DNA of 64,000 nt from a bacterium (GTDB lineage: Bacteria > Bacillota_I > Bacilli_A > RF39 > UBA660), in contig CAVKUP010000001.1 in NCBI GenBank assembly GCA_963659735.1, forward strand, positions 1,166 to 65,165, written 5' to 3'. The translations under genes and the position numbers were made by a program. Below the pieces are notes generated by a model. That model was not told the DNA's origin. It made no database searches and saw only the letters and a program-made list of their open reading frames with translations. Shown one piece after another: positions 46,366-63,313 of the stretch; the stretch's first letter is position 1; each line of letters begins with the position of its first letter.

Positions 46366-46404
46366 GCTTTCCTTTTTTTGTTATATTTTATTGTAGGTGA
46401 TATC

Positions 46405-46715
46405 ATGAAAAAAGAGGGTTTGCTTTAATCGAATTACTTGCTGTAATTGTATTAAGTGTTGTATTATTAATTGCTGTTTCGAAATTGTTATAAGTTTAAA
46501 GCATTAAATGTAAGTAGCTATAATATGTTAAATGTAAAGAATAATGGTATGTATGGTAGTTGTAAGTAGTTTTGATACAAGTAAAGGATATGAATTATAA
46601 CACACCTAATCTAAAACAAGTTAATGCAGACTCAAAATGGACAACCACAAGTGCATCAACACCAAATATGTTTACTGGAAGTGGAATTTCATTCGTGATA
46701 ACAGGCAAGGGCTAG
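46405..46715 (+). pseudogene. Decayed pilin gene: ATG plus an A6 tract frameshift, then a canonical prepilin N-terminus (KRGFALIELLAVIV...) and internal stops
   Basis: Reading after the A-run in the -1 frame gives KRGFALIELLAVIVLSVVLLIAVSKLL*. A downstream frame gives ...ADSKWTTTSASTPNMFTGSGISFVITGKG*, resembling residues 40-75 of the 50386 ORF. Confidence 0.45.
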
Positions 46716-48250: not shown

Positions 48251-49588
48251 ATGAAAAATTCTCAAAAAAGTTCAAGTAAGAAGAATAAAATATTAGATTT
48301 TATTCAAAATGTAGAGGACCGAGCTAATGATGCTTTAGAAGATAGTTTAATGGATGAAGATGCTAAAAATGATGGTAATGTTGTTTATAATGATATTGTT
48401 AAAAATTCTGTGCAAGCTAGTATGTCAAAATTGCCTTGGCTTATTGCACTATTTCTTATTTTAATAATTTCAATTACATTTGGTGTGATGTTTTTTAAAA
48501 GTAATCCTAAAACGTTATTTACGCAAACTGTTGATGGAATGTTTAGTTATTTAGAAAATAATATTAATGATAATGTTTATGATATAACTGATGGTAATAT
48601 TTATTTTGATTATGATGTTGTCACTAATTTAGAAACAGATGTTTTGAAAAATGAATTTAGTCATGTAAAATGGAATGCTGATTATGTTAAAGATAATTCT
48701 AAGGGTGCCTTTTATTTGGATTTAAAGACTAAATATGATGATTTTGATTTGCTTAAATTAAAGTTATATGGGGATAATTCTGATACTTATATTTATGCAC
48801 CTGATTTGTATGATAAGTATGTAAAGTTTAAAAATAATAAGATAAATTATTTGTTTAATAGTAATGATGCTAAGATAATTCTTGATGGGTTTAATCAAGC
48901 TATTGATAAATTAATTGCTGATGAAAAAATTTATAGTAATAAAGAATTATTAAATGTTAATGATAAGAATTTTAATGCGATTAAAACAAGATTTTTGATT
49001 GATGATAAAAATAGAGATAGGGTCTGTGAATCTTTTATTAATTCGTTAAAGGCTAATGATGAATTTGTAAGTTCTTTTTCAAAATTAAAGGGTGTTAAAA
49101 GTAGTAGTGTAAAGAAGTCGTTGGATAAGTATTTAATTAAGTTAAAACGTAAATTGAAAAAATATGGTAATTTAAATGTTGTGTTGTATACTGATAGTAA
49201 AACTAATGGTTTTCTTAAATTTGTACTTTTTGGTGAAAATGAAATGTTTAGTTTAATTAAGGGAGAAAATGATAAATTTTATTATGAAGTTAATAATGGC
49301 GAAAATAAAATAAATGGTGAATTTTCATTGGAGGTTAACGATAGCAAAACTAAGTATGTTTTTTATTTGATTTATAAGAAGAGTATTAATAATAGTGTTG
49401 TTTTTGAGGATAGATATAATTTGAAGTTTACTTGTAAAAAAGCAAATTATTTTAAAAAAGTTGATACTAGTGATAGTGTTGATGGTAATAAATTAGATGA
49501 TTTAACTAAAGCTCAAATTTATATGAATATTTCATCTAATTCAAATTTAAGTAGGATAATTAGTGAAATTAAATTAGCGCGAAGCTAA
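48251..49588 (+). CDS. Hypothetical single-pass membrane protein with a large extracytoplasmic domain
   Basis: TM helix at about residues 60-85. No family recognised. Confidence 0.4.
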   Translation: MKNSQKSSSKKNKILDFIQNVEDRANDALEDSLMDEDAKNDGNVVYNDIVKNSVQASMSKLPWLIALFLILIISITFGVMFFKSNPKTLFTQTVDGMFSYLENNINDNVYDITDGNIYFDYDVVTNLETDVLKNEFSHVKWNADYVKDNSKGAFYLDLKTKYDDFDLLKLKLYGDNSDTYIYAPDLYDKYVKFKNNKINYLFNSNDAKIILDGFNQAIDKLIADEKIYSNKELLNVNDKNFNAIKTRFLIDDKNRDRVCESFINSLKANDEFVSSFSKLKGVKSSSVKKSLDKYLIKLKRKLKKYGNLNVVLYTDSKTNGFLKFVLFGENEMFSLIKGENDKFYYEVNNGENKINGEFSLEVNDSKTKYVFYLIYKKSINNSVVFEDRYNLKFTCKKANYFKKVDTSDSVDGNKLDDLTKAQIYMNISSNSNLSRIISEIKLARS

Positions 49589-49641
49589 TTTTTTTGCATT
49601 TTTTTTATGTATAAGCATATCTTAAAGTGAGGGGTGATTAT

Positions 49642-50178
49642 GTGGCGGCATATAAAGAAATAGTAACTAAGGCAATTGTTGGTAAAGGGAAAAAACAGTT
49701 TAAAAATAATTATACTTTACAGGTTGAGAATAAACCAACAACTGTTTTAGGGTGCTGGGTTATAAATCATAAATTTAAGGGCTATAAGACAGGAAATAAG
49801 GTTGGGGTTGATGGTTCATTTGATATAAATATATGGTATTCTTATGATGATGATAGTAAAACGGCGGTTATTAATAAAAAAATTGAATATAATGATTTAT
49901 TTAATGTGAAAGTTAGGGAGAATGCTGATATATCAGATAATAATGATATTATTGTTAGAAGTTTAAAGCAACCTACGTGTTATGGTGTTGAAATTTTAAA
50001 TGATAAAACTATATCTTTTAATATTGAAAAGGAACTTGGGGTTGAAATTGTTGGTGAGGCTAAGGTAAAAATTGCTGTTGAAGAAGATGAGGATCCATGG
50101 GATGATATTGTTGATGATGTTGATGAAAGTACTTTAAAAGAGATTGATGAAAATGTATCGGATGATTATTTAAAGTAA
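49642..50178 (+). CDS. cotE: Outer spore coat morphogenetic protein CotE
   Basis: YKEIVTKAIVGKGKKQ, VLGCWVINHKF and DINIWYSY are collinear with B. subtilis CotE (YREIITKAVVAKGRKF; ILGGWIINHKY; DINVWYSY). Acidic C-terminus. Likely GTG start at 49642 after a GAGGGGTG RBS. Confidence 0.75.
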   Translation: MAAYKEIVTKAIVGKGKKQFKNNYTLQVENKPTTVLGCWVINHKFKGYKTGNKVGVDGSFDINIWYSYDDDSKTAVINKKIEYNDLFNVKVRENADISDNNDIIVRSLKQPTCYGVEILNDKTISFNIEKELGVEIVGEAKVKIAVEEDEDPWDDIVDDVDESTLKEIDENVSDDYLK

Positions 50179-50185
50179 TGGTATT

Positions 50186-50207
50186 GTGCGTGATGACGCA
50201 CTTTTTT
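50186..50207 (+). terminator. Rho-independent terminator after cotE
   Basis: gtgcgt-gatg-acgcac plus T6. Confidence 0.75.
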
Positions 50208-50385
50208 GATGTTTTGATATATTAAAATGAAGTGATTTTTTTGTGGTAGTTTATGGATGTTGAAGTTTACGGTAAATTTTTTTTGCTTAAATTGAGAATA
50301 ATTTTAGTATTGATAAGAGGTGTGAAATATGGTATATTTTTTATAGAGTAGTTGTACTACTTGAGTCTATAGAAAGGGTGATATA

Positions 50386-50946
50386 GTGGATAATAAACAT
50401 AAAAATGCTTTGATTGGTGCGTTACTTGCTGTTGTATTTGTTATGGCAGTTGGTTATGCAGCGTTTGCACAACAATTAACAATTAATGGTAGTGCCACAA
50501 TTACATCAAAATGGGATGTTCATATGACAAATGATGGTGCAACTGCAACTCCAAGTACAATTATGAATACTATGCCATCTGGTACTGTTAGTGTTGCTGA
50601 AGGTGGTTTAAGTGCTGATTTTACTGCAAGTTTAATTTCTCCTGGAGATAAAGTTACATTTGTTGTTCCAATTAAGAATGCTGGTACAATTGATGCTGTT
50701 TTAGATACTATTACTTTATCTAGTACTACTGCAGGAATGGCCATTGATAATACTGGTTTAACTGCTACAACAGCTGATGGTAGTATTAAATATACTGTAA
50801 CTAGTCCAAGCAAAAATACTTTAGCTAATACAACTGGTTCTGATACAATTACTATTGTTGCTGAATACGTTAACCAAGATAACCAAGGTAATGTTCAAAA
50901 TGTTACGGCTCAACTTACAGTAGTAATGAATTATGTTCAAGCATAG
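50386..50946 (+). CDS. Thr-rich secreted or anchored fibre-subunit-like protein with a pilin-derived N-terminal helix lacking G(-1) and E(+5)
   Basis: KN|ALIGALLAVVFVMAV aligns with the pseudogene RG|FALIELLAVIVLSVV. Beta-rich T/S composition. GTG start after an AAAGGGTGA RBS. Confidence 0.5.
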   Translation: MDNKHKNALIGALLAVVFVMAVGYAAFAQQLTINGSATITSKWDVHMTNDGATATPSTIMNTMPSGTVSVAEGGLSADFTASLISPGDKVTFVVPIKNAGTIDAVLDTITLSSTTAGMAIDNTGLTATTADGSIKYTVTSPSKNTLANTTGSDTITIVAEYVNQDNQGNVQNVTAQLTVVMNYVQA

Positions 50947-50965
50947 AGATTAGTAAATGATTTAG

Positions 50966-50988
50966 AAAGTCAGAAAATGACTTTTTTT
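50966..50988 (+). terminator. Strong rho-independent terminator after the 50386 gene
   Basis: aagtca-gaaaa-tgactt plus T7. Confidence 0.75.
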
Positions 50989-51062
50989 AATTTGTAATTA
51001 TATAATTTTGAGACATTTTTACAAGTTAAACATATTTTATGCTATCCAAAATAACTTTTTCT

Positions 51063-51090
51063 TTGCATTTAAAAAAAAATAAGATATAAT
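51063..51090 (+). promoter_or_regulatory. Candidate sigma-A promoter for the downstream locus
   Basis: TTGCAT at 51063-51068, 16-nt spacer, TATAAT at 51085-51090. Confidence 0.45.
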
Positions 51091-51120
51091 TATGTTATAG
51101 AATATAGAGGGGGCAATAAG

Positions 51121-52701
51121 ATGATTTTAAGAAAACCTTATGCATTTTTTATAAAGTATTTTAAATTATTTCATGCAATTATTGCTTTATTCATTGGTTT
51201 TTTACTTTATAAAAGCTTTACAGTTTATAATTTTTTCAATGTTTATATTGATGATTATAGTTCAGCGCTTACAAGTTTATCTCCAAGAACAATTATAAAC
51301 ATGTATACCTTTTTAACTATACTAATTGTAATAATTTTGACAATTGTTTTATTATCAGTAATGTTTTATAAAAAAAAGCCTAAATCTTTATACATTTATT
51401 CTTTTATTGCTTATATTGCATTACTAGTTTTATTTGGTATAACTTATCCAATCTTACGTGATATTAGTGGTGCAATATTGGATGTTCGTGTATCTAAAGC
51501 CTTAAGAGATTTTTATATGATGTCTTTAGTTATTCAAGCAATAAGTTTAGTTTTATTTATAGTAAGAGCAACTGGTTTTGACATTAAAAGGTTTGATTTT
51601 GGTACAGATTTGCAACAACTTGATATTAATGAAAAAGATAGTGAAGAAATAGAAGTTGCTTTAGAGTTTGATAAAAATAAAACTCAACGTAAAATTAGAA
51701 GTATATTTAGAAATTTTAAATATGTATATGGTGAAAACAAGTTTATAATCAATACAGTTGGTTTAATATTGATTGTAATATTAGGTTTTAATATTTATGT
51801 TAATATAACAGTTTATAAAGCTAAATATAATCAAGGAACTGCTTTTGAAGCTAGTAATATAACCTTAAATGTAAGAGATTCTTATTTAACAAAGCTTAAT
51901 TCCTCAGGAGAGGCATTAACAAGTGATGAAATACTTGTTTTAAAACTGGACATTAAAAGTCAAATTGATAATAATACATTAAATACGGGTCTTGCTACTG
52001 TATTAATTGAAGGAAAATCATATAGTCAAAATAATGAATATGCGAAAGAATTGACAGACCTTGGTGAAGCTTATACAAATCAAACTTTAGATTCAGAATA
52101 TCATAGTTATATTTTAGCGTTCAATATTCCAGAAAAAGATATTGATAAAAAAATGACATTTAAATTTAATGATGATGTTAGTTACATCAAAGGAGAAATT
52201 GGTGCAAAAAATATTTATGTTAAATTAAATCCAATTAATTTAGATAAAAAAATTAAAACAATAAGCAATAAAATGGGTGAACAGCAAAATTATGACGATA
52301 GTATTTTAGAAAGTGCGGATTTAAAAATAAATAGTTATGAAATAAATAATCAGTTTAAATCTGAATATAAATACTGCTATAGCATTAATAAATGTATAGA
52401 TTCATATGAATACATAACTCCAAGTGCAACTGGAAATTATTTTAAAACTTTAATTAAAATTAATGGAGAATTTAATACTGATAATACACAAATAAATAAT
52501 GTGATAATATTTATGAATACATTTGGGACAATTAATTATAAAATAAATGATACTTGGAAAAGTGAAAAAATAAATTCTTCTTCTTTAAAATCAAACTTTG
52601 ATGGATTTTATTTAGAAGTTCCATATGACATTAAAGATGCTACAGAGGTAAATTTTGTATTTAATATACGTAATTTATCTTATAAATATACTTTAAAGTA
52701 A
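51121..52701 (+). CDS. Polytopic membrane protein (4-5 N-terminal TM helices plus a sixth around residue 210) with a ~300-aa extracytoplasmic C-terminal domain
   Basis: AGAGGGGG RBS. No family recognised. Confidence 0.4.
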   Translation: MILRKPYAFFIKYFKLFHAIIALFIGFLLYKSFTVYNFFNVYIDDYSSALTSLSPRTIINMYTFLTILIVIILTIVLLSVMFYKKKPKSLYIYSFIAYIALLVLFGITYPILRDISGAILDVRVSKALRDFYMMSLVIQAISLVLFIVRATGFDIKRFDFGTDLQQLDINEKDSEEIEVALEFDKNKTQRKIRSIFRNFKYVYGENKFIINTVGLILIVILGFNIYVNITVYKAKYNQGTAFEASNITLNVRDSYLTKLNSSGEALTSDEILVLKLDIKSQIDNNTLNTGLATVLIEGKSYSQNNEYAKELTDLGEAYTNQTLDSEYHSYILAFNIPEKDIDKKMTFKFNDDVSYIKGEIGAKNIYVKLNPINLDKKIKTISNKMGEQQNYDDSILESADLKINSYEINNQFKSEYKYCYSINKCIDSYEYITPSATGNYFKTLIKINGEFNTDNTQINNVIIFMNTFGTINYKINDTWKSEKINSSSLKSNFDGFYLEVPYDIKDATEVNFVFNIRNLSYKYTLK

Positions 52702-52739
52702 ATTAATTATATGCTATAATATGTTAGGAGGATAGGAAA

Positions 52740-53363
52740 GTGAAACAAGTTAAATATTTGATTTTTACCTTGATATGCACATTCGTATTTCCAATGATTT
52801 CTCATGGAGAATGTAATTATCAAAGACAAGCGGAACTTTCAAGAATTGCTAGTAATGTTAAAATAAATTATAACTATACGGTAAGTGATACAAGTAATCT
52901 ACAATTTGTCATAAACATTACTAATTTAACTGATGATATTTATTTGTTACAAGATGGTTTAAATATTATATCTGGCACTGGAGAAAAACAAATAAGTGTG
53001 GATTATGGTAACTCTGTTAAATATGACATTTATTCTAATGATTCTTCTTGTAAAGGTGAATACTTACTTACAAAATATATTACTATACCTACCGTTAATT
53101 CATTTGCGGATACTAATTTATGTAAAACTAATCCAAATTTCAAATATTGTCAAAGATGGGGAAGTTATTCTATTAGTTATGATGAATTATTAAATCAATT
53201 TAATTTATATAAAAAAAAATCAGAAAAAAAGAGTGATAGTAAAAATGACACATTTCAAATTTTAATTGATTATTTTAATAATAATAAATTTATGCTTGCG
53301 TTTTTTGGAATAGTTATTGTTTGTACAATCATTTATTATATATTTAACAAGAAAAAGATGTGA
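52740..53363 (+). CDS. Cys-containing secreted protein with signal peptide and C-terminal TM anchor
   Basis: GTG start after an AGGAGG RBS. Signal peptide ...PMISHG|E. C-terminal FMLAFFGIVIVCTIIYYIF TM helix. Confidence 0.4.
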   Translation: MKQVKYLIFTLICTFVFPMISHGECNYQRQAELSRIASNVKINYNYTVSDTSNLQFVINITNLTDDIYLLQDGLNIISGTGEKQISVDYGNSVKYDIYSNDSSCKGEYLLTKYITIPTVNSFADTNLCKTNPNFKYCQRWGSYSISYDELLNQFNLYKKKSEKKSDSKNDTFQILIDYFNNNKFMLAFFGIVIVCTIIYYIFNKKKM

Positions 53364-53371
53364 GGGATATT

Positions 53372-56185
53372 ATGAAAAAATTAAAAAAAATATTTGCTTT
53401 TATAATTATAAGCTTATCTATTTTTCCTGTGCTTGTGTTTGCTGTAGAAAGTGGGGGTACTGGTGAGAGTGGAGGTCAATCAAATACTGGTTATGGTGGC
53501 CAAGCTGCTTGTGGATATTTTAGTAATTTTGATCCCCCTATTAATTTCGCTAACACGGGAGCTGGATATAAAACATTTTCTGCATATAAGTTTGATCTAG
53601 TTTATAAAACTAAAAATGGCAAACGTGAAATTTTAAAAACTGTAGTTACATATGATGATTATTCATGGGCTACTCGAGGCTATTATTATACTAGAGTTGG
53701 ACCATCTATTGATAGATATGTTGCAGCCCTTAAATCGGTTTATGGTAGTGGTAATGTAATATATAAAACATCTGGTGGGGATAATACGCTTTTTGGTTTG
53801 GCTCGCAAACTTTCAAAGGGCGATACAATTGATAGGCTTTTTAACAATAATAAGTTAACAGAATATAATCTAATAAAAAATTATATAACAAGTACTGATG
53901 GTTTTGGCGTTTCTGCAAAAGATTTACAACGTCCTCAGGATACTAACCCCGGCAACTTTGATTCTTATGGTTACAGAATACTTATTCAAAAAATACAACT
54001 TTATGATACTTGTGATGAGGCTGCTACTTTTGACGCAGGTTATGGCACTAAGGGAGATGCTGCTTTGTCGGCACCAAGAAAAGAAGCTGCAAATGCAGAT
54101 TCCGCACTTATGAAAAATTTAAAAAATAGTATCGGTTGGGCAACGGCTAATTATCAAGTTGAAATGTCATCTGTAGTTCATGTTGGTAGTACTGAACTAT
54201 GGACAACAAAAGATGATATTGGTATTAGTAAAGCAAACAATAACGATGTAAATACACTTAAAGGTACAAATTATAATTGTAGTGCTGGTGACAGTGCTTG
54301 TATGAGAAGATGGGGAGTGGCAATTAGAAATTTGAGAAGTACATTTGCTGATGAAAATAACGGCTTAGGCTATAATATTTTGTGGTTTGCGACTGATGCC
54401 TTCGCTAGCGATTATTCAATTGATGCGGCATGTGTTAATTGTAATAGTAAAATTTCTGATAATAAATCTTATTTTATTCAAGATACGACTAATTGGACAG
54501 CCATAAAAAATAGTAAAGGATATTTAGAAGGTAGTAGTGAAGATTATGCAAAGAATGTACAAAAATATTTTTACAAAAAGGAAAATGGTTTTCCAGATAC
54601 ATACTGTAGAGAAGAATATACAGTTAAGTTTCCAAATGCTAATAATACGATTCAAGTCGCAACTGGTAGATATTTTTTGTTAAATGCATCTGATGAAGAT
54701 GAAAAAAAATACTCTGCAATCCCTAATTTTAAACCAATTTCAGTTACAAAAACGAGAATTTGTAAAGGTGGTAACTTAGAAAAATTCAAAAATGCATCTG
54801 AAGGCAGTTTCAAAAATACTGGAAAAGTTTATTTTAAATACATAGAAAATTATAATGGTAGTAAGTATACAATGAGCCAAAAACAAGAACTAAAAGCTAA
54901 TAGTGACTCTAAGGTCACGTCAACTATTAATGGTGATACACTTACAATGTCTATTACAAAAACATACACTTTACCTACTGACTTTTATAGATATGTAAGA
55001 AAAAAAGATGGCCTATCTGTTAAACAAATAACAAATGACCAAAAAGATAGTGGTGAATATGAGGATATAGGAATTTCTAATTTACCCGTTTCATTTAATA
55101 ATTATAGTTCTTATGCTGGAGATGTTAAATTGTCTTATGAATTACCATCTCATAATGAAGATCCATATACATATATAAAAGCTGCTTATGAAGCAGGTAA
55201 TGGTGCTAATAATTATTTTAAATCTAAGAACAATGAATTTAATAATATTTATAAAAAGTATTCTAATAATCAAACAATGACTGATGAAGAAAAAAGCGAT
55301 TTAACTCAAAGTGCTTGTGCGAAAATGTATGGTTATGGGACAAGTGGATTTAATGAATGTGCTAAAAAAAGGCAGACAAACAAAATAGGTGATACTGATT
55401 CAAATTGTTATACTATTAATAAACAAATTGATTCAAATCAATCAACTAGTGGATATTCTTGTATAGTTAGTAGTCCTAACAAATGCCGTTATGACAAGAG
55501 TACAGGAAAGTTTTATAACAGTGCTGGTAAAGAAATATCTGAAACTGATTATAACAGTGGTAAATGTGATTCTGATGATGGCGGAACTGATGGCGGTGGA
55601 ACGTGTAAAATAGTTTATAATCATAAAACTGATTCAACTGATTATTATGGACCTAATGGTGAAAAAGTAAGTAAAGATGAATATAATAAACTTTGTCCAT
55701 GTCCAAGCTCTTGCGAATATGGATGCTGTCCATCTGGAGAATGTGCTCCTATGCCAAGAAAGAATGGTATGATTGTCTGCCCTATAGGTGGCAAAAGAGT
55801 TATTTATAGAACAATTGATTTAATACAGCCATTTCCAGGTCAAAGTTCAACAAATAGAGCAACCGGAAGTAACTGGTGTTCATATGACATTAAAACGCAA
55901 AAGATAAATTGTAAATGGAATAACAATGTTTCTAAAACTTACATTTTAAATGAAGGTAAAACAATACATAGTGACAACCATGTTTTGTATCAAGTAACTT
56001 TAGATTCTAAAACTATTAGTAATGTAAGGAACTATAACAAAAAAAATAAATATGATGATTTCACTTTAAAATGTAAAAATAATGGTAAAGCTTGTATCAG
56101 TACATTCTTAAAAGAGGTAGTATCTACAACAGGGAAATGTGCAAATAAAAGTACTGCAAGTCAATTTAACAGTTGTAATAGTTAG
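53372..56185 (+). CDS. Large (about 937 aa) Cys-rich secreted protein with Gly-rich N-terminus. Candidate pilus-associated adhesin or substrate.
   Basis: Signal peptide MKKLKKIFAFIIISLSIFPVLVFA. About 40 Cys, concentrated in the C-terminal half (CPCPSSCEYGCCPSGECAP). No sortase motif. Confidence 0.5.
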   Translation: MKKLKKIFAFIIISLSIFPVLVFAVESGGTGESGGQSNTGYGGQAACGYFSNFDPPINFANTGAGYKTFSAYKFDLVYKTKNGKREILKTVVTYDDYSWATRGYYYTRVGPSIDRYVAALKSVYGSGNVIYKTSGGDNTLFGLARKLSKGDTIDRLFNNNKLTEYNLIKNYITSTDGFGVSAKDLQRPQDTNPGNFDSYGYRILIQKIQLYDTCDEAATFDAGYGTKGDAALSAPRKEAANADSALMKNLKNSIGWATANYQVEMSSVVHVGSTELWTTKDDIGISKANNNDVNTLKGTNYNCSAGDSACMRRWGVAIRNLRSTFADENNGLGYNILWFATDAFASDYSIDAACVNCNSKISDNKSYFIQDTTNWTAIKNSKGYLEGSSEDYAKNVQKYFYKKENGFPDTYCREEYTVKFPNANNTIQVATGRYFLLNASDEDEKKYSAIPNFKPISVTKTRICKGGNLEKFKNASEGSFKNTGKVYFKYIENYNGSKYTMSQKQELKANSDSKVTSTINGDTLTMSITKTYTLPTDFYRYVRKKDGLSVKQITNDQKDSGEYEDIGISNLPVSFNNYSSYAGDVKLSYELPSHNEDPYTYIKAAYEAGNGANNYFKSKNNEFNNIYKKYSNNQTMTDEEKSDLTQSACAKMYGYGTSGFNECAKKRQTNKIGDTDSNCYTINKQIDSNQSTSGYSCIVSSPNKCRYDKSTGKFYNSAGKEISETDYNSGKCDSDDGGTDGGGTCKIVYNHKTDSTDYYGPNGEKVSKDEYNKLCPCPSSCEYGCCPSGECAPMPRKNGMIVCPIGGKRVIYRTIDLIQPFPGQSSTNRATGSNWCSYDIKTQKINCKWNNNVSKTYILNEGKTIHSDNHVLYQVTLDSKTISNVRNYNKKNKYDDFTLKCKNNGKACISTFLKEVVSTTGKCANKSTASQFNSCNS

Positions 56186-56195
56186 GAGGTAAAAC

Positions 56196-56597
56196 ATGAA
56201 AGAGTCATTTTGGGGTATATTTGTTGTGTTTCTAGGTATTACGTCAATATTTTTCATAGTTTTATTTCAAAACTTAACTAATACTGATGAACACAACTCA
56301 CAACTTTTAAAAGAAGTTACAGAAGCTGCAATGTGGGATGCATTTGATTATTCTGCATATAGAACTAATGGAACAGTAAGAATAAACAGAGAAAAGTTTG
56401 TAGAAAACTTCGTTAGAAGATATGCAGAAAGTGCAAGTAAATCAAGACAATATGAAATAAAATTTTACGATGTAAATGAACAACCGCCTAAGGTTAGTTT
56501 AAGCGTTACCAGTGGAGTTGTTGGTGTTAATGGTAGCACTGAAGTTACATTTAATTTAAAAAATAGTATTGATGCTATTTTAGAAACACCATATTAA
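56196..56597 (+). CDS. Pseudopilin-like protein with short leader MKESFWG|hydrophobic
   Basis: AGGAGG RBS. N-terminal TM helix directly after a 7-aa leader ending in Gly. Confidence 0.45.
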   Translation: MKESFWGIFVVFLGITSIFFIVLFQNLTNTDEHNSQLLKEVTEAAMWDAFDYSAYRTNGTVRINREKFVENFVRRYAESASKSRQYEIKFYDVNEQPPKVSLSVTSGVVGVNGSTEVTFNLKNSIDAILETPY

Positions 56598-56617
56598 AGA
56601 AGAAAAGAGGAGATAAA

Positions 56618-57676
56618 ATGGATAATTTAGCAATGACATTTAAAAGATTTTTAAAAAATAAAAATGTAGTTACTATTATTGGGGTAGTAATAATACTAAT
56701 TTTACTTTATGTAGGCTATAGTACTCAAATCAACAAAGCTGTTGAACCAGTTGAGATCCCTGTGGCTACTCAAACTATTCAGCCAAGAACTGAAATTACT
56801 GATGACATGGTTAAGCTTATTGATATGCCAAATGTATCGTTAAGTGATAATGTTATTAGATCTAAAGCACAAATTGTAGGAAAATATTCCAATGTTAATT
56901 CAGTAATACCTGAGGGAAGTATGTTTTATACTGATACGGTAATTAGTAAAGATGAACTTCCAGATGCGGCATTTACTAAAGTTAAATCTGGAGAAGTAGT
57001 TTATAATTTCCCAGTTGATATGGAAAGCACTTATGGAAATTCAATTTTCCCTGGAAATAAAATTGACATCTACATGAAAGTTGGAGATGGAACAGATGAA
57101 AAAATTATGCTTGGTAAATTAATAGAAAATGTAGAAGTACTTGCTGTAAAAGATTCTTCAGGTAAGGCAGTATTTGAAAACACAAGTGAAGAAAGAACAC
57201 CAGCAATGCTTATATTTGGATTAAAAAGTAAACTTTATACTTTACTAAAAAAAGCATCATACATGGATAGTTTAGGTGTAGAATTGTATCCAGTACCACA
57301 CGGAAGTAAAGTTGATACAACGGGAACAACTGAAGCATCTACACAAGAATTAGTAGATTATATTGAGGCTCATTCAATTAGCTTAGCTGAAACTGAAAGT
57401 ACAAATACAACGGATGAATTATTACCTACAGTAAAAGAAACAGGAGGAACTCCAAATACTGTAACAATCACATTCCCTAGTGGATGTAATAAAACATATA
57501 CATGTTCATATATAAAAGATAATGGTAAAACAGTTAAAGTAACTAAAACAACTCAAGATTTAATTTATACAACTAATGGTACATTAATTGCTACAGTAAC
57601 AGAGAAAGATGGTACAACTCATGTTTTAACAACTAATATTCCACTTACTAATTCAACTACTACAACAGGACAATAG
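56618..57676 (+). CDS. cpaB: CpaB/RcpC-like Flp pilus assembly protein (SAF domain)
   Basis: N-terminal TM helix, then a SAF-type segment QPRTEITDDMVKLIDMPNVSL...IVGKYSNVNSVIPEGSMFYTDTVISKDE. Thr-rich C-terminus. Confidence 0.65.
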   Translation: MDNLAMTFKRFLKNKNVVTIIGVVIILILLYVGYSTQINKAVEPVEIPVATQTIQPRTEITDDMVKLIDMPNVSLSDNVIRSKAQIVGKYSNVNSVIPEGSMFYTDTVISKDELPDAAFTKVKSGEVVYNFPVDMESTYGNSIFPGNKIDIYMKVGDGTDEKIMLGKLIENVEVLAVKDSSGKAVFENTSEERTPAMLIFGLKSKLYTLLKKASYMDSLGVELYPVPHGSKVDTTGTTEASTQELVDYIEAHSISLAETESTNTTDELLPTVKETGGTPNTVTITFPSGCNKTYTCSYIKDNGKTVKVTKTTQDLIYTTNGTLIATVTEKDGTTHVLTTNIPLTNSTTTTGQ

Positions 57677-57678
57677 TT

Positions 57679-59145
57679 ATGAATAATGTTTTTGACCAAA
57701 TAGATTTTGGGGCACTAAAACCTTATTTGGAAGATGATGATATAACTGATATTTCTTATGATAATGGTGGACAAATACATTTAAAAACCTTATCTAAAGG
57801 AATATTTAGAATAGAAAATCCAGCAATTAATAATGCATTTATGGAAAAGCTAGCGTTTCAATGTTCAAATGTTATGGGAAAAACTTTTAACATGGCGCAT
57901 CCATTTCTGGATGCTGAAAGTGCAGAGTTACGTTTAGCTTTTATCCATGAATCAGTTTCATCAAATGGGATAGCTTGTGTTTTACGTAAAACACCAGCTA
58001 AAATACGTTTGCAAAAAGAAAAAATAGTTGCTGACAGATATGTTGAATTAGATATAATTGATTTTTTAGAACAATGTGTTTTAGGCCACTGTAATATTAT
58101 TGTATGTGGTGAAACAGGTTCTGGTAAAACGGAACTTGTAAAATATTTGGCTAGTAAGATAGCTGAAAATGAAAAAATTATTACAATTGAAGATACATTG
58201 GAATTACATTTGGATAAAATTTTTCCACATCGTGATGTAGTTTCACTTAAAACTAATAACATCGCATCTTATACTGATATTTTGGAAGCATGTATGAGAC
58301 AAAATCCTAAATGGATTTTACTATCAGAGGTTCGTAGTGCTGAAGCTGTATTAGCTGTTCGTAACTCTATATCATCTGGTCACTATATTTTATCAACAAT
58401 ACATGCTGATAAGGCTGTTTCCATTCCAAACCGTATGTACAGTTTATTAGAAACAAATCAAGATTTAGATCAATTTATGAGTTCTATTTGTAGATATGTT
58501 CAAATTGGAATATATGTTAGAGGTTATCAAGATAAAGCTACTAAACGTTTTAAAAGGGAAATTGCTGAAGTTACAGAATTTTATGTAACAAGTGATACTA
58601 ATGAAGCAAAACATAATATCATTTATAGAAAAGGTGCTGACGGTAAAGTTATTAGAAATAATCCAAGCCCATATTTAATAGATTACCTAGAAGTTCAGGG
58701 AGTATTCTTACCTAAAGAATTACAAAATATGGCTGGTGATACGTATGTTACTAATGATTCAATGAAAAATAGTATTGAAGGTAATTCTGAAAATATTGAT
58801 AAAACATTTGAAGGTAATGAAAATAATTCAATTGATACTTATTTAAAAACTTCTACAAATGCTGTGCAAATAAATGAAATTAATTCAAATATTTCTACAG
58901 AAAATACATCAAGTATTTTTCAAAATGAAGTTAGTTTAAATAGTTCTGCAGATAATGTTATGTCAAATGTTTCTGTGAACAGTCAATCAAATGATTCCAT
59001 AAACATTGATAATAGTTTTAGTTCAAACATTCCTGTAGAAAATCATATACATGATATTTCTATGAATGAAAATGCAAACAATTCTGTGAATAATTTTGTA
59101 CATGATACTTCAAGTATAAATAATACAGAAAATTTATTTGAATAG
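57679..59145 (+). CDS. tadA: CpaF/TadA-family type II/IV secretion ATPase with an unusual about 130-aa Asn/Ser-rich C-terminal tail
   Basis: Walker A CGETGSGKTE, Walker B WILLSEVR, His-box region. VirB11/TadA-type N-domain. Confidence 0.85.
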   Translation: MNNVFDQIDFGALKPYLEDDDITDISYDNGGQIHLKTLSKGIFRIENPAINNAFMEKLAFQCSNVMGKTFNMAHPFLDAESAELRLAFIHESVSSNGIACVLRKTPAKIRLQKEKIVADRYVELDIIDFLEQCVLGHCNIIVCGETGSGKTELVKYLASKIAENEKIITIEDTLELHLDKIFPHRDVVSLKTNNIASYTDILEACMRQNPKWILLSEVRSAEAVLAVRNSISSGHYILSTIHADKAVSIPNRMYSLLETNQDLDQFMSSICRYVQIGIYVRGYQDKATKRFKREIAEVTEFYVTSDTNEAKHNIIYRKGADGKVIRNNPSPYLIDYLEVQGVFLPKELQNMAGDTYVTNDSMKNSIEGNSENIDKTFEGNENNSIDTYLKTSTNAVQINEINSNISTENTSSIFQNEVSLNSSADNVMSNVSVNSQSNDSINIDNSFSSNIPVENHIHDISMNENANNSVNNFVHDTSSINNTENLFE

Positions 59146-59155
59146 GAGGAGCAAT

Positions 59156-60061
59156 ATGACATTTTTAATATTTTTAATAGTTTTAATAATAGCTATATTT
59201 ATTGTACTATATCGAAATAATAGTAATTCTAATAATGTTTACAAGTTTCTTAATAAACAAGTTGGTGTAATTTACGATAAGTACGCTCCTTATTCATTTA
59301 AAGTGGTTAGGGAAAAAGTTAAGGAATTAGGTCAAGAATATACTCCCAGACAGTATACAATTCAAATAATTGTATTTGCAGTAGGAGCAGCAGTTGTTAC
59401 ATATTTATATTTTTATAATATTGTTATTTCTTTAGTATATGCTGTAATTGCTGTATCTATTATTCCTTATTTAACTTATTTAAGATGTAAAAGATTATAT
59501 AGTGAATTTATATTTGAACAAATTCAAGTATATACAACTAATACAATTATGGAATTTGCTACTACTCAGTCTTTTGTTAAAGCATTGGAAGGTGTATATG
59601 CCTCAGATGTTTTAGAAGATCCGGTTAAAGCAGATGTTAAAATGATGATTGACATGGCTTATGAAAATGGTACTATTGATCAATCTTTAAATTATATGAA
59701 TAGTAAATATGATTATTATATTGTAAGAAATATGCATCAATTATTCTTACAAATTACTAATGAAGGTTCAAGAGATGCAGGTGAATCTTTAGAAAACATG
59801 AGTCAAGATATTGATATGCTTGTAGAAGGAGTTTATAGAGATAGAATTGATAGAGCAGCTTTCCATAAAAAATTCTTACAATTTGGTATTATTTTATACT
59901 TAATGGTTATGCTTGTTCAATTTATGTTAGGCTTAGAAACATATAATGAAATGTTAGAAAGCTGGTGGGTAAAATTACTTTTACACGGTATTATATGGCT
60001 TAATACGTATTTCATTTTATCAGGTGAAAAATATTATAATGAAGATGTGGGGGCGGAATAA
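59156..60061 (+). CDS. TadB-like polytopic membrane platform protein (T2SS-F type)
   Basis: AGGAGGAG RBS before the ATG at 59156. TM helices flank a central cytoplasmic domain. Position directly after tadA. Confidence 0.55.
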   Translation: MTFLIFLIVLIIAIFIVLYRNNSNSNNVYKFLNKQVGVIYDKYAPYSFKVVREKVKELGQEYTPRQYTIQIIVFAVGAAVVTYLYFYNIVISLVYAVIAVSIIPYLTYLRCKRLYSEFIFEQIQVYTTNTIMEFATTQSFVKALEGVYASDVLEDPVKADVKMMIDMAYENGTIDQSLNYMNSKYDYYIVRNMHQLFLQITNEGSRDAGESLENMSQDIDMLVEGVYRDRIDRAAFHKKFLQFGIILYLMVMLVQFMLGLETYNEMLESWWVKLLLHGIIWLNTYFILSGEKYYNEDVGAE

Positions 60062-60855
60062 TGAGTATAGGATTAACATTTATAATAATTGCAATTATTC
60101 TTATATTTTTACTTGAATATAATAATCATTTTAGCTCAAACAAATTCATAAGAGAAACAGAGCCTTACTTTAGAACTTTAATGGAAGATGACTATGATTT
60201 TCTACTTAAAGTAAGATATGGTGGCGACGTTGATGTTAATAAAATGTATGGGCTTAGAGTACGTAATGGAATTGTTACTATAATTTTTTGTTTATTTATA
60301 TTTATGTCTAAATTAACTTTTGCTTATATATTACTTTCATTACTACTGGGTTTTGGAATGTTTAAGTTATCATATATGCAATTGAATAGTTATTATAAGC
60401 AAAATTTACATAAAATTAATTTAATGTTACCTTACTATTTAAAGGGACTAGAAATTTTAGTTCAGCACTACACAGTTCCAGTCGCACTTTCCAGATCAAT
60501 AGAAACAGCACCTGAAATTTTTAAATCTGGTTTAAGAAAATTGGTTGCTAAAATTGATGCTGGTGATGCTTCTGTTCAACCGTATATGGACTTTGCTCAT
60601 GAATATCCAGTTAGAGATTCTATGAGAATGATGAGGCTTCTTTATAGATTGGGTTTAGGTAGTCAAGAAAACAAACAAGAACAGTTATTAATGTTTTCAA
60701 GAACCATTTCAACTTTACAAAATAAGGCACGTGAACAAAAGTATAAAGAACGTTTAGAAAAAATGGAAAATAAAACAATGATTATGCTATTTGGTACTGG
60801 TGGAGGTATCTTAGGATTCTTACTTTTAGCTATGATGATGATGATGAACTTTTAG
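60061..60855 (+). CDS. TadC-like polytopic membrane platform protein
   Basis: Translationally coupled. Topology similar to the preceding ORF. Confidence 0.55.
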   Translation: MSIGLTFIIIAIILIFLLEYNNHFSSNKFIRETEPYFRTLMEDDYDFLLKVRYGGDVDVNKMYGLRVRNGIVTIIFCLFIFMSKLTFAYILLSLLLGFGMFKLSYMQLNSYYKQNLHKINLMLPYYLKGLEILVQHYTVPVALSRSIETAPEIFKSGLRKLVAKIDAGDASVQPYMDFAHEYPVRDSMRMMRLLYRLGLGSQENKQEQLLMFSRTISTLQNKAREQKYKERLEKMENKTMIMLFGTGGGILGFLLLAMMMMMNF

Positions 60856-60938
60856 TGTAAAGTAAGGAAAATATATAGAAAGTTTAATTTATATGTGTTA
60901 TAATTTAGTTAATAATGAAGATAAGGAGGTGTTAATAT

Positions 60939-61175
60939 ATGAAGGAAGCTGCTGGTGAAGCAAACTTAACAGTTGTTGCTATTATTTTAATTGGTGTTGT
61001 TGTTGCAGTGGTTACTCCACTTGTTTCTAATTTAATGAGCTCTACAGCAAAAAAAGCTTGTTGTACAGATGCTGGAGGTGTTTGGAAAGGTGGCTCTTGC
61101 CAAGCAGGAAGTAGTTCCTACAGTGCACAAGATTATAATACTTGTGTTAATAATTCTACTAAAAATGCTAAATAA
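60939..61175 (+). CDS. Small Flp-sized pilin-like protein, leader MKEAAG|EANLTVVAIILIGVV, Cys-rich C-terminus
   Basis: 78 aa. AGGAGGTG RBS. TM helix, then KKACCTDAGG...GSCQAG...CVNN. Followed by a terminator. Confidence 0.5.
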   Translation: MKEAAGEANLTVVAIILIGVVVAVVTPLVSNLMSSTAKKACCTDAGGVWKGGSCQAGSSSYSAQDYNTCVNNSTKNAK

Positions 61176-61178
61176 TAT

Positions 61179-61202
61179 GCTTGCTTAAAAGCAAGTTTTT
61201 CT
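61179..61202 (+). terminator. Terminator/attenuator after the small pilin-like gene
   Basis: cttgc-ttaaaa-gcaag plus T5. Confidence 0.6.
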
Positions 61203-61224
61203 TAGTATAAATGGGGTGAGGTAA

Positions 61225-61722
61225 ATGCGTGAAAGTATAGGAAGTACATTTTTATATAATATAATCATACTATTTGTAATAATTGTTATTGGTTTACTTT
61301 CAGCTACTATAAGTTATTATAAAGCATTTAAAGTTAATGAAAGATTACTTTATTCTATAGATAAATTTGAAGGGTATAATAAATCTTCAAAAAATGAAAT
61401 GGAACAGTATTTGTCATCTGTTGGATATTCATATGAAGAAACTGGTCAAAAAGAGTGTGCAAAAAGTAAAAACGGTGGCACTTTAATTATGTCAACGACT
61501 TCAAAATATTTATATTGTGTTTATTATCACAAAGATGATAGAGGACTAAAGGAAGAAAATATAATCAATGGTGATGAGGAACCAATATATTATAATTATA
61601 GTATTACAAGTTATATATATGTTGATTTGCCTATTGCTGGTAAATTTAAAGTTCCTGTTTATACTAAAGGAGAGAGAATATATAATTTCTCAGATCATCA
61701 AAGTCAGGGGGATAAGATATGA
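61225..61722 (+). CDS. TadE-like minor pilin/pseudopilin paralogue 1 (leader MRESIG|STFLY...)
   Basis: N-terminal TM helix. Shares YKAFKV, YCVY and D[LV]PI[AV]G[KD]F motifs with the next ORF. Confidence 0.45.
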   Translation: MRESIGSTFLYNIIILFVIIVIGLLSATISYYKAFKVNERLLYSIDKFEGYNKSSKNEMEQYLSSVGYSYEETGQKECAKSKNGGTLIMSTTSKYLYCVYYHKDDRGLKEENIINGDEEPIYYNYSITSYIYVDLPIAGKFKVPVYTKGERIYNFSDHQSQGDKI

Positions 61723-62207
61723 AAGAAGCGATTGCTAATGCTGGGGTATTTAATCTTGTAATTATATTTGTAATTATTTTACTAGCATTCTTTGTTGGTT
61801 CGCTTTCTTATTCTAAGGCTTTTAAAGTAAAAAATAAGATTGTTGAAGAAATTGAAAAAGATCAAGAATATGTAGTAACAGGAAAAAATTCTACCGAAGT
61901 AAGAGTAGAACAATGGTTAAAAAATATTGGATATAGAGTAAATACTACTAATCAGTCAAATGCAGCTTTATGTGACAGTAAAGTTAGTGGAAATGGTGGT
62001 TCTGCTGGAGTTTTAGTTAACAAAAATAGCAATTATCAATACTGTGTATATGAATTCAATACATGTGAACAAAATTCTGATAAATCAAAATGTGGTAAAT
62101 ATTATAAAGTAATTGCTTATATGTATTTTGATGTTCCAATTGTTGGAGATTTTTTAAAGATTCCTATTAAAGGGGAAACAATGATATTTAATGAAGTCCA
62201 TAGTTAG
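61719..62207 (+). CDS. TadE-like minor pilin/pseudopilin paralogue 2 (leader MKEAIANAG|VFNLV...)
   Basis: Paralogue of the 61225 ORF, with an overlapping start/stop. Confidence 0.45.
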   Translation: MKEAIANAGVFNLVIIFVIILLAFFVGSLSYSKAFKVKNKIVEEIEKDQEYVVTGKNSTEVRVEQWLKNIGYRVNTTNQSNAALCDSKVSGNGGSAGVLVNKNSNYQYCVYEFNTCEQNSDKSKCGKYYKVIAYMYFDVPIVGDFLKIPIKGETMIFNEVHS

Positions 62208-62219
62208 GAGGCGAATTAA

Positions 62220-63227: not shown

Positions 63228-63255
63228 CCTCTTTACACTTTTTTATTTTGTTTTA

Positions 63256-63284
63256 TTGACAAACAAAACAAATAATTGTATATT
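63256..63284 (+). promoter_or_regulatory. Candidate promoter for the tandem small-protein genes
   Basis: TTGACA at 63256-63261, 17-nt spacer, TATATT at 63279-63284. Confidence 0.4.
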
Positions 63285-63313
63285 TATTATATAAGTTAAG
63301 AGGAGGAAAAATT

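What the first reader, a model, noticed from the sequence alone, without database searches (positions are those of the whole stretch)
50386..50988. Pilin-derived Thr-rich protein whose class III signal has lost Gly(-1) and Glu(+5)
The N-terminus KHKN|ALIGALLAVVFVMAVGYAAF aligns residue-for-residue with the canonical prepilin helix of the nearby pseudogene (RG|FALIELLAVIVLSVV). Gly(-1) is replaced by Asn and the invariant Glu by Gly/Ala, leaving a possible signal-peptidase-I site (VGYA|AF). The rest is Thr/Ser-rich and beta-strand-like, as in fibre subunits. The gene has its own strong terminator, suggesting high independent expression. This may be a pilin re-routed to Sec secretion, or a non-processed anchor.
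Basis: seen in the sequence. Interest (0 to 1): 0.65.

Follow-up and report, generated by a model that had tools for sequence, protein, structure and literature searches.

The report
TasA/AbpX-like fibre subunit, not a pilin
The gene encodes a small secreted beta-sandwich protein from an unannotated but very large family in uncultured gut Bacilli; it is most likely a TasA/AbpX-type fibre subunit cut by a dedicated signal peptidase, and it is not a degenerate type IV pilin.

Summary
The ORF is real: 50386-50946, + strand, 186 aa, Thr/Ser-rich and all-beta after one N-terminal helix. The claimed pilin relationship is not supported.

The family profile instead aligns with the archaeal fibre protein AbpX (hhalign 92.7%, 146 columns) and more weakly with TasA (83%). 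Both alignments put target GYA|AF on their cleavage sites (TYA|QW, TWA|AF).

In 57 of 76 genome loci, and in every conspecific contig found, family genes sit directly upstream of an archaeal/SipW-type signal peptidase I with about ten membrane helices, followed by DUF5305. They occur in tandem arrays of 1-10 copies. This matches the published AbpX-like locus.

Residues 1-45 (signal plus presumed donor strand) are nearly invariant through purifying selection.

Best reading: Sec export, cleavage after Ala25, then donor-strand polymerisation. Polymerisation is inferred, not shown.

In this window the peptidase and DUF5305 genes are missing. Collinearity with conspecific contigs stops at 50989 and an unrelated Tad-like cluster follows. 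This is either a rearrangement or an assembly mis-join.

It is a new member of a known kind, of modest interest.

The parts
50310..50338 (+). Promoter-like site (TTGATA, 17-nt spacer, TG-TATATT) upstream of the gene and downstream of the cotE terminator (50186-50201).
   Evidence: Consensus scan. The number of sites found is not above the shuffle expectation, so this is suggestive only.
50386..50946 (+). Coding sequence of the 186-aa AbpX/TasA-like subunit precursor (GTG start, TAG stop). An AGGGTG ribosome-binding site lies at 50375-50380.
   Evidence: There were 527 homologues in the word-indexed search. The exhaustive search gave 7922 cluster representatives at E<=1e-3, part of which are giant DUF11-repeat proteins.
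50386..50460 (+). Sec-type signal peptide, residues 1-25. The n-region is MDNKHKN, the h-region ALIGALLAVVFVMAV and the c-region GYA. Cleavage is predicted after Ala25.
   Evidence: hhalign places Y24-A25|A26-F27 on AbpX Y53-A54|Q55-W56 and on TasA W26-A27|A28-F29. The TasA fibre chain 8aur_A starts at AFNDIK. There is a single hydrophobic segment at residues 9-27. Cleavage itself is inferred.
50461..50517 (+). N-terminal extension of the mature protein (AFAQQLTINGSATITSKWD), the presumed donor strand.
   Evidence: No secondary structure in either AF2 model; pLDDT of the extension is 61-72 in the full-length model and 67-87 in the mature-only model, against 95-98 for most of the core. It is nearly invariant in 155 copies: A1 155/155, F2 153, L6 155, W18 140. 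It aligns with the AbpX donor strand QWSETLSLSATISTGSLD. The donor-strand role is inferred.
50518..50943 (+). Beta-sandwich core, residues 45-186. It includes the conserved PGD...N.G hairpin (residues 86-100, 50641-50685).
   Evidence: AF2 mature-only model has pLDDT 92.7 and pTM 0.84. P86, D88, N98, G100 and A104 are invariant in the 41-sequence alignment. Weak hits to AbpX and TasA and to DUF11/CARDB.
50964..50988 (+). Terminator-like hairpin (AGAAAGTCA-GAAAA-TGACTTTTT) with a T-run. It is conserved in conspecific contigs, where the peptidase gene follows.
   Evidence: The consensus scan does not detect it.
50990..51047 (.). Breakpoint. Collinearity with conspecific contigs that carry the peptidase and DUF5305 genes ends at 50989. 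Homology with conspecific contigs that carry the Tad-like cluster starts at 51048.
   Evidence: A 38-mer from the junction is absent from the JGI metagenomes and from all fetched loci.

Best explanation
The gene encodes the precursor of a small secreted beta-sandwich subunit. It belongs to the AbpX-like branch of the TasA superfamily of extracellular fibre and biofilm-matrix proteins.

Proposed mechanism:
1. The N-terminal 25 residues are a Sec signal peptide.
2. A dedicated archaeal/ER-type (SipW-like) signal peptidase I with about ten membrane helices removes it after Ala25 (GYA|AF). A DUF5305 membrane protein is thought to assist.
3. The freed N-terminal extension (AFAQQLTINGSATITSKWD), with invariant Phe2, Leu6 and Trp18, inserts as a donor beta-strand into the next subunit. 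This builds a non-covalent fibre, possibly mixed with paralogues encoded elsewhere.

Shown here: homology to AbpX and TasA, the alignment of the cleavage motif, the operon context in relatives, and purifying selection on residues 1-45. Inferred: cleavage, polymerisation, and the biological role (adhesion or matrix).

In this particular window the peptidase and DUF5305 genes do not follow the gene. Processing would have to occur in trans, from a copy located outside the window.
For: 1. Sequence homology
- hhalign of the 94-member family profile against the AbpX precursor gives probability 92.7%, E 4.3e-7 and 146 aligned columns. The alignment spans the signal h-region, cleavage site, donor strand, PGD hairpin and most of the core.
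- Against a 34-member TasA/CalY profile it gives 83.4%, E 8.5e-6. A reversed control gives P 0.3.
- In PDB profile searches the hits that recur with both family profiles are AbpX (9sj2, 9rhp) and TasA (5of1, 8aur). They are the best hits for the 94-member profile and rank just below a glucanotransferase (5x7g) for the 41-member one.
- The best Foldseek hit of the mature model is the TasA fibre 8aur_A (probability 0.99, E 0.012). Other donor-strand pilins follow.
- Peptidase_M73 is hit by 11 of 41 members, and the SipW-dependent families TIGR04089 and TIGR04090 by 4 of 41.

2. Genomic context
- In 57 of 76 genome loci the last family copy is followed, at a median of 183 bp and on the same strand, by the S26 peptidase and then DUF5305. 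Ten of the other 19 loci are cut by contig ends. The remaining 9 come from genomes that have a peptidase-linked array elsewhere.
- The peptidase scores 92 bits on TIGR02228 (cut-off 51.85) and has about 9-10 hydrophobic segments.
- This is the locus type described for AbpX-like systems in preprint 10.64898/2026.01.04.697558.
- DUF5305 appears in only four papers in the library, all on TasA-superfamily pili.
- All conspecific contigs examined show CotE, then the target, then S26, then DUF5305: the shown places of the 23 contigs read for P0121, 2 contigs for P0122, and L009.

3. Conservation of the N-terminus
- In residues 1-45 the majority residue has frequency 0.81, against 0.44 in the rest of the protein.
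- Synonymous-site identity between paralogues in the same array is equal in the two parts (0.60 against 0.59). The conservation is therefore selection on the protein, not gene conversion.

4. Structure prediction
- In the AF2 monomer the extension is unstructured, as reported for AbpX.
Against: - Similarity to TasA proper is limited. For the mature parts alone hhalign gives 50.8% over only 33 columns, the PGD hairpin.
- No Foldseek hit reaches E<=1e-3, and TM-scores are at most 0.41.
- The target itself is below threshold for every Pfam and NCBIfam model.
- The same hairpin gives more numerous weak hits to DUF11/CARDB than to Peptidase_M73.
- The acidic donor-strand residue at position 4, conserved in AbpX homologues, is Gln or Thr in nearly all of the 155 copies and never acidic.
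- Neither the peptidase nor DUF5305 is encoded anywhere in the 64-kb window.
- No multimer prediction or experiment was possible, so cleavage and donor-strand assembly are untested.
Confidence: 0.75

Rival explanations
1. Degenerate type IV pilin. The N-terminal helix descends from a class III prepilin signal that lost Gly(-1) and Glu(+5). It is either retained as a helix or processed by another route.
For: The N-terminus is a short basic stretch followed by a helix of about 20 hydrophobic residues, and it is conserved as strongly as pilin helices are. True pilin genes and a pilin remnant occur in the window. In this window a Tad-like cluster lies directly downstream.
Against: N_methyl hits 0 of 41 and 0 of 94 members, and nothing at E<=10 for the isolated 48-aa N-terminus. 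The same model finds the window's pilin (8e-8), the 29-aa remnant (8.9e-6) and the 657-aa pilin of L086 (1.2e-8). The adjacency to the Tad-like cluster is unique to this window; in conspecific contigs that cluster lies elsewhere. No family locus examined is tied to pilus machinery: the one CpaB-like tblastn hit among the genome loci (L082) is a short Cys motif shared with a family member's C-terminal extension. No Peptidase_A24 hit was found among the proteins encoded at 48251-63664.
Confidence: 0.03
2. Membrane-anchored surface protein. The hydrophobic N-terminus is an uncleaved signal-anchor that holds a DUF11/CARDB-type Ig-like domain on the cell surface, and no fibre is formed.
For: The most frequent weak domain hits are DUF11/CARDB (22 and 13 of 41 members in Pfam; TIGR01451 in 29 of 41). 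The core domain recurs as 13-34 repeats in giant proteins. The h-region is unusually conserved for a disposable signal. In this window no cognate peptidase is encoded.
Against: The tight and widespread coupling to a dedicated signal peptidase I is hard to explain if the signal is not cut. The GYA|AF motif aligns with the cleavage sites of AbpX and TasA. TasA signal peptides are equally conserved. The invariant region extends 20 residues beyond the membrane segment into an amphipathic extension that is unstructured in the models.
Confidence: 0.12
3. Spore-surface component. The gene lies next to cotE, and TasA was first described as spore coat-associated protein N, so the protein could be a spore coat or appendage subunit rather than a vegetative matrix fibre.
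For: CotE (Pfam E 1.4e-48) is the upstream neighbour, here and in all conspecific contigs. TasA chains are deposited as 'spore coat-associated protein N'.
Against: In most other lineages the arrays lie next to argS, not cotE, so the adjacency is lineage-specific. A terminator and a separate promoter-like site lie between cotE and the gene. This rival concerns where the fibre is used, not the molecular mechanism.
Confidence: 0.1

Closest known systems
AbpX of Pyrodictium abyssi and AbpX-like loci of Bacillota and Chloroflexota (PDB 9sj2, 9rhp; preprint 10.64898/2026.01.04.697558)
   Same: Profile-to-sequence homology over 146 columns at 92.7%. The cleavage motif is Y-A|x-aromatic. The N-terminal extension is unstructured in the monomer. 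Both have the PGD/PGA...N.G hairpin and an acidic pI. The locus type in relatives matches: several AbpX-like paralogues, a signal peptidase I with about ten membrane helices (TIGR02228), and DUF5305.
   Different: Only about 22% identity. There is no acidic residue at donor-strand position 4, which is the Ca2+ ligand in AbpX. D+E content is 7.5%, against about 15%. There is no Cys, whereas AbpX is disulfide-bonded. The signal is 25 aa, against 54 aa. The hosts are uncultured gut Bacilli with 1.3-1.5 Mb genomes. Arrays reach 10 copies. In this window the peptidase and DUF5305 genes are absent.
TasA / CalY (Pfam Peptidase_M73) with SipW of Bacillus
   Same: Conserved signal ending in aromatic-Ala|Ala-Phe, aligned in register. 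Both have the PGD...N.G hairpin. Both are associated with an ER/archaeal-type signal peptidase. The TasA fibre 8aur is the best fold hit.
   Different: The target is below the Peptidase_M73 threshold, while all 34 TasA controls pass. The mature protein is 161 aa, against about 234 aa. There are about 27 extra residues between the AF motif and the first core strand. No TapA-like gene is present. Homology of the mature parts covers only 33 columns.
Tat-dependent bundling pili ('tafi') of haloarchaea
   Same: Donor-strand fibres of the TasA superfamily whose loci also contain DUF5305.
   Different: Tafi subunits use the Tat pathway. The target has a Sec-type signal with no twin-arginine motif (sequence).
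Type IV pilins (Pfam N_methyl, class III signal)
   Same: A short basic N-terminus followed by a conserved hydrophobic helix; the protein is a fibre subunit.
   Different: No G|F...E motif and no N_methyl match. There is no association with pilus ATPase, platform or prepilin peptidase genes in relatives. The predicted cut is at the C-terminal end of the helix, not the N-terminal end.
DUF11 / CARDB Ig-like repeat domains of surface proteins
   Same: Shares the PGD...N.G beta-hairpin. Many weak hits. The family profile matches repeats in giant proteins.
   Different: The target is a single domain, has its own conserved signal and N-terminal extension, and is coupled to a peptidase operon. No member was shown here to reach a curated threshold.

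Membership tests
Type IV pilin / class III signal (Pfam PF07963 N_methyl) | N-terminal motif G|[FM]xxxE followed by a hydrophobic helix, detectable with the N_methyl model | tested here: not met
   0 of 41 and 0 of 94 members hit N_methyl, and the isolated 48-aa N-terminus gives nothing at E<=10. Positive controls: window pilin 8e-8, 29-aa remnant 8.9e-6, L086 pilin 1.2e-8. The sequence has Asn at -1 and Gly at +5.
Type IV pilin / class III signal (Pfam PF07963 N_methyl) | Genomic association with a prepilin peptidase and pilus assembly ATPase/platform genes | tested here: not met
   In 57 of 76 genome loci, and in all conspecific contigs found, the downstream neighbours are S26 and DUF5305. 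The Tad-like cluster is adjacent only in this window. No Peptidase_A24 hit among the proteins encoded at 48251-63664.
AbpX-like branch of the TasA superfamily | Sequence or profile homology to AbpX across the jelly-roll core | tested here: met
   hhalign of the family profile against the AbpX precursor: 92.7%, E 4.3e-7, 146 columns. hmmsearch against the PDB hits AbpX at E 0.005-0.04, in the top three with both family profiles.
AbpX-like branch of the TasA superfamily | Dedicated signal peptidase I with about ten membrane helices (TIGR02228) encoded in the locus | tested here: inconclusive
   Met in relatives: 57 of 76 loci and all conspecific contigs found; TIGR02228 at 92 bits against a cut-off of 51.85; about 9-10 hydrophobic segments. 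Not met in the window itself, which has no S26 homologue in 64 kb.
AbpX-like branch of the TasA superfamily | DUF5305 accessory membrane protein in the locus | tested here: inconclusive
   PF17231 lies directly after S26 in relatives. It is absent from the window.
AbpX-like branch of the TasA superfamily | Amphipathic N-terminal donor strand with an aromatic residue at mature position 2 | tested here: met
   Phe2 in 153 of 155 copies, with alternating L6, I8, A12, I14, W18, V20. The extension is unstructured in the monomer models. This assumes cleavage after Ala25.
AbpX-like branch of the TasA superfamily | Conserved acidic residue at donor-strand position 4 (Ca2+ site) | tested here: not met
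   Position 4 is Gln (86), Thr (66), Ser (2) or Ala (1) in 155 copies, and never Asp or Glu.
AbpX-like branch of the TasA superfamily | Polymerisation by donor-strand complementation | not testable with these tools
   Only single-chain prediction was available. This needs a multimer prediction or an experiment.
TasA / camelysin proper (Pfam PF12389 Peptidase_M73) | Score above the Pfam gathering threshold | tested here: not met
   The target has no hit at E<=1. 11 of 41 members give weak hits, the best at 2.2e-5. All 34 TasA controls hit.
TasA / camelysin proper (Pfam PF12389 Peptidase_M73) | SipW-type signal ending in aromatic-Ala|Ala-Phe | tested here: met
   hhalign aligns VG--YAAF with GGGTWAAF. 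The TasA fibre chain starts at AFNDIK. The signal-only comparison alone is weak, P 0.025.
DUF11 / CARDB repeat domain | Score above a curated threshold for PF01345, PF07705 or TIGR01451 | tested here: not met
   The target scores 12 bits on CARDB against a cut-off of 22.7, E 0.26. Other members give sub-threshold or borderline hits, the best at 1.8e-6.

The most novel reading that the evidence does not exclude
Arrays of up to ten paralogues share an almost invariant signal and donor strand but have divergent cores. They could co-assemble interchangeably into mixed, Ca2+-independent donor-strand fibres. This would give uncultured, reduced-genome gut Bacilli a way to vary their surface. In this strain the cognate peptidase and DUF5305 module would have been displaced by a mobile Tad-like island, leaving an orphan subunit.
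Probability: 0.2. Interest if true: 0.55.

Novelty: new member of a known kind. Interest (0 to 1): 0.33.

Why it matters
The result gives a functional hypothesis to an unnamed protein family. The profile matches thousands of cluster representatives, although part of them are giant DUF11-repeat proteins. No curated Pfam or NCBIfam model names the window protein, and other members give only weak hits. The family is abundant in uncultured human and animal gut Bacilli (CAG:822 and Candidatus Coprosoma relatives) with 1.3-1.5 Mb genomes. It extends the recently defined AbpX/TasA donor-strand matrix systems, with their peptidase of about ten membrane helices and DUF5305, into this group. The near-invariant 45-residue N-terminus would make a good seed for a family model. 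It also corrects an attractive but wrong reading, a pilin with a decayed signal, that rested on the generic similarity of hydrophobic helices.

Tried and rejected
- Pfam and NCBIfam on the target alone gave nothing usable; the only hit was CARDB at E 0.26.
- The look-up of encoding contigs with the exact window protein found no record. Close cluster members had to be used instead.
- A word-indexed search with a 92-aa AbpX fragment found nothing. The AbpX precursor was taken from the preprint supplement and corrected against the PDB alignment.
- A link between the family and Tad pili was considered, because of the downstream cluster and a CpaB-like tblastn hit in L082. It was rejected. The L082 hit is a short Cys motif shared with the C-terminal extension of a long family member, and the Tad-like cluster lies elsewhere in conspecific contigs.
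- Gene conversion as the cause of the invariant N-terminus was rejected, because synonymous-site identity is equal in the two parts of the gene.
- A search for any signal peptidase in the window (S26 tblastn, SipS recalled from memory, SGSMxP motif) was negative.
- An exact-match scan of the JGI metagenomes for the junction 38-mer was negative. Whether the junction is a mis-join or a real rearrangement remains open.

Full report
**Observation**

The window has 27% G+C. It encodes a 186-aa ORF at 50386-50946 on the + strand, with a GTG start and a TAG stop. The part after residue 25 is 18% Thr and 8.7% Ser, has no Cys and has pI 4.1. AlphaFold2, run with a 41-sequence alignment, gives a helix at residues 3-25 and then an all-beta domain (mean pLDDT 87).

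The 'nearby pseudogene' is real. The fragment HEKRGFALIELLAVIVLSVV... at about 46404-46490 hits Pfam N_methyl at E 8.9e-6. Comparison with conspecific contigs shows that it is what remains after a deletion of about 1.8 kb inside a 657-aa gene. That gene encodes a pilin N-terminus fused to DUF285/LRR repeats.

**The pilin reading does not hold**

In 36 of 90 long reading frames of the window, some 23-mer scores at least as well against the pilin helix. The genuine pilin at 25803 scores 54.
- The N_methyl model hits none of 41 and none of 94 family members, and gives nothing at E<=10 for the isolated 48-residue N-terminus. It does find the window's pilin (8e-8), the 29-aa remnant (8.9e-6) and the intact 657-aa pilin of L086 (1.2e-8).

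**What the family looks like**

- The word-indexed search found 527 homologues, all without any functional name (the few names given are 'hypothetical protein') and mostly 180-195 aa.
- The exhaustive HMM search found 7922 cluster representatives at E<=1e-3 and 3674 at E<=1e-10. These include giant proteins in which the core domain recurs 13-34 times.
- Residues 1-45 are almost invariant, with the consensus M-E-x-KHKN-ALIGALLAVVFVMAVGYA-AFAQQLTINGxAxITSxWDVH. Over 155 copies the majority residue has frequency 0.81 there, against 0.44 in the rest of the protein.
- Between paralogues of one array, identity at four-fold synonymous sites is the same in the first 45 codons (0.60) as in the rest (0.59). 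The conservation is therefore purifying selection on the protein, not recent gene conversion.
- P86, D88, N98, G100 and A104 are invariant in the 41-sequence alignment and form a PGD...N.G hairpin.

**Homology**

- hmmsearch of the family profile against PDB sequences gives AbpX (9sj2, E 0.005; 9rhp, E 0.03) and TasA (5of1, 8aur; E 0.07-0.1) among the top five hits; a cycloisomaltooligosaccharide glucanotransferase (5x7g) ranks first. A broader 94-member profile again finds AbpX first and TasA next.
- hhalign of the 94-member profile against the AbpX precursor gives 92.7% probability, E 4.3e-7 and 146 aligned columns (target 9-163 against AbpX 36-190). The AbpX sequence came from the preprint supplement and was corrected against the PDB alignment.
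- Against a 34-member TasA/CalY profile hhalign gives 83.4%, E 8.5e-6 and 79 columns.
- Controls: the mature parts alone give 50.8% over the 33-column hairpin, the signal parts alone give P 0.025, and a reversed TasA profile gives P 0.3.
- Both alignments put target Y24-A25|A26-F27 on the cleavage sites. In AbpX this is Y-A|Q-W, and the recombinant mature protein starting there forms the solved fibril. In TasA it is W-A|A-F, and the fibre chain 8aur_A starts at AFNDIK.
- Weak family hits point the same way: Peptidase_M73 in 11 of 41 members (best 2.2e-5), and the SipW-dependent families TIGR04090 and TIGR04089 in 4 of 41.
- The hairpin also attracts DUF11/CARDB models, and more often (22 and 13 of 41). 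TasA controls hit Peptidase_M73 in 34 of 34 cases and DUF11/CARDB almost never. The core is thus closer to generic DUF11-type sandwiches than TasA proper is.
- A mature-only AF2 model is confident (pLDDT 92.7, pTM 0.84). Mature residues 1-19 have no secondary structure and lower pLDDT than the core (67-87 against 95-98). The preprint describes the AbpX monomer in the same way.
- The best Foldseek hit of that model is the TasA fibre (probability 0.99, but E 0.012 and TM 0.41). Chaperone-usher pilins and AbpA follow. This is suggestive but not conclusive.

**Genomic context, the strongest evidence**

I fetched 76 loci from species-representative genomes. These are uncultured Bacilli, Firmicutes bacterium CAG:822 and Candidatus Coprosoma, and three closed MAGs among them are 1.3-1.5 Mb.

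- In 57 of the 76 loci the family genes form same-strand arrays of 1-10 copies. A roughly 380-aa Peptidase_S26 protein follows at a median of 183 bp, and a DUF5305 protein follows that.
- Ten of the remaining 19 loci are cut by contig ends.
- The other 9 are real orphan sites, and each belongs to a genome that also has a peptidase-linked array.
- The peptidase passes TIGR02228, the archaeal/SipW-type signal peptidase I model, at 92 bits against a cut-off of 51.85. Its catalytic domain follows about 255 residues containing roughly nine hydrophobic segments, and one more lies at the C-terminus.
- This matches the AbpX-like locus described in preprint 10.64898/2026.01.04.697558: AbpX-like major and minor subunits, a signal peptidase I with ten membrane helices, and a DUF5305 accessory protein, found in Thermoproteota, Bacillota and Chloroflexota.
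- DUF5305 is mentioned in only four papers in the library, all on TasA-superfamily pili.

**The local situation in the window**

Conspecific contigs have proteins at least 90% identical and DNA 93-96% identical. They show ParC, RNase J, the 657-aa pilin, MiaB, a 445-aa protein, CotE, the target, S26 and DUF5305, followed by a T4SS-like cluster.

The window is collinear with them up to 50989, just past the hairpin. From 51048 it continues with a Tad-like cluster. In 24 other contigs that cluster sits in a different context, behind a gene whose C-terminal fragment is rich in EGRA-type repeats.

No S26 or DUF5305 homologue exists anywhere in the 64 kb. The 58-bp junction is unique. I cannot tell a true rearrangement from a MAG mis-join. 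Either way, the adjacency of the target to pilus-like genes is accidental.

The hairpin at 50964-50988 is conserved in front of the peptidase gene in conspecific contigs. It is weak. It fits a partial terminator that keeps subunit expression above peptidase expression better than it fits a sign of autonomy; this is an inference.

**Mechanism**

Inferred steps:
1. Sec export.
2. Cleavage after Ala25 by the dedicated SipW-like peptidase. In this strain it would have to act in trans, if it is present at all.
3. Exposure of the invariant amphipathic extension: A1, F2, L6, I8, A12, I14, W18, V20.
4. Insertion of that extension as a donor strand into the next subunit.

Unlike AbpX homologues, position 4 of the strand is never acidic, and D+E content is 7.5%. 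Ca2+-dependent strand docking is therefore not expected.

Long family members (315-553 aa) that carry the same N-terminus plus C-terminal extensions may be tip or adhesin subunits; this is speculation.

**Verdict**

The object is a new member of a known kind of system. Interest is modest. The family is large, unannotated and restricted to poorly known gut Bacilli, but its architecture was described in 2026 for AbpX-like systems.

Noticed in passing
window 46404-46715: Pilin pseudogene. Only the first roughly 75 bp (KRGFALIELLAVIV..., N_methyl E 8.9e-6) and the last roughly 100 bp remain of a 657-aa gene. In conspecific contigs (L086 4358-6331) that gene is intact and encodes a type IV pilin N-terminus fused to DUF285 and LRR repeats.
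   Followed up: yes
window 50990-51047: Unique 58-bp junction. Upstream the window is collinear with contigs carrying the target, S26 and DUF5305. Downstream it is collinear with contigs carrying the Tad-like cluster in another context. This is either a strain-specific rearrangement or a MAG mis-join, and it was not resolved.
   Followed up: partly
window 51121-63664: Co-oriented Tad-like cluster. It encodes a 526-aa polytopic protein, a 207-aa protein, a 941-aa Cys-rich secreted protein, DUF5411, an RcpC/CpaB-like protein, a T2SSE ATPase with a long low-complexity tail, two polytopic proteins without Pfam hits, a 78-aa hydrophobic Cys-rich protein, two paralogous proteins of about 163 aa with MKE..G N-termini, a 335-aa protein, and a 116-aa protein with a weak T4SS_pilin hit. 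No prepilin peptidase was detected.
   Followed up: partly
L086 13051-20561 (conspecific contig): In conspecific strains the target, S26 and DUF5305 genes are followed by a T4SS-like or conjugation-like set (TraC-like, VirB4/TraG-like ATPase, Amidase_5). The region downstream of this locus therefore seems to be a variable, mobile-element-prone site.
   Followed up: no
L082 7500-12688; window 57400-57676: Long family members (315-553 aa) carry the same invariant N-terminus plus C-terminal extensions. One extension shares a short Cys motif (TVTI.FP.GC...YTCSYIKD) with the C-terminus of the window's CpaB-like protein.
   Followed up: partly
proteins P0131-P0133, P0135 and others: Giant proteins of 2300-6900 aa contain 13-34 repeats that match the core of the family profile (profile positions about 60-165). 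The beta-sandwich is thus also used as a repeat module in very large surface proteins.
   Followed up: no
window 25803-26279: An intact, solitary type IV pilin-like gene (KGFTLVELLAIIV; N_methyl E 8e-8) lies between valS and lepA. No pilus machinery is encoded nearby.
   Followed up: partly
window 49627-50178; L005 4533-4739: Sporulation genes occur in this group of uncultured Bacilli: CotE in the window (Pfam E 1.4e-48) and SSPI in relatives. The three closed MAGs of the group are only 1.3-1.5 Mb.
   Followed up: no
window 50520-50813 (- strand): A 97-aa antisense ORF lies inside the target gene, and similar antisense ORFs occur in homologous genes (L009, L010, L082). It is probably a by-product of the codon composition of this Thr/Ala/Val-rich gene rather than a real gene.
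   Followed up: no
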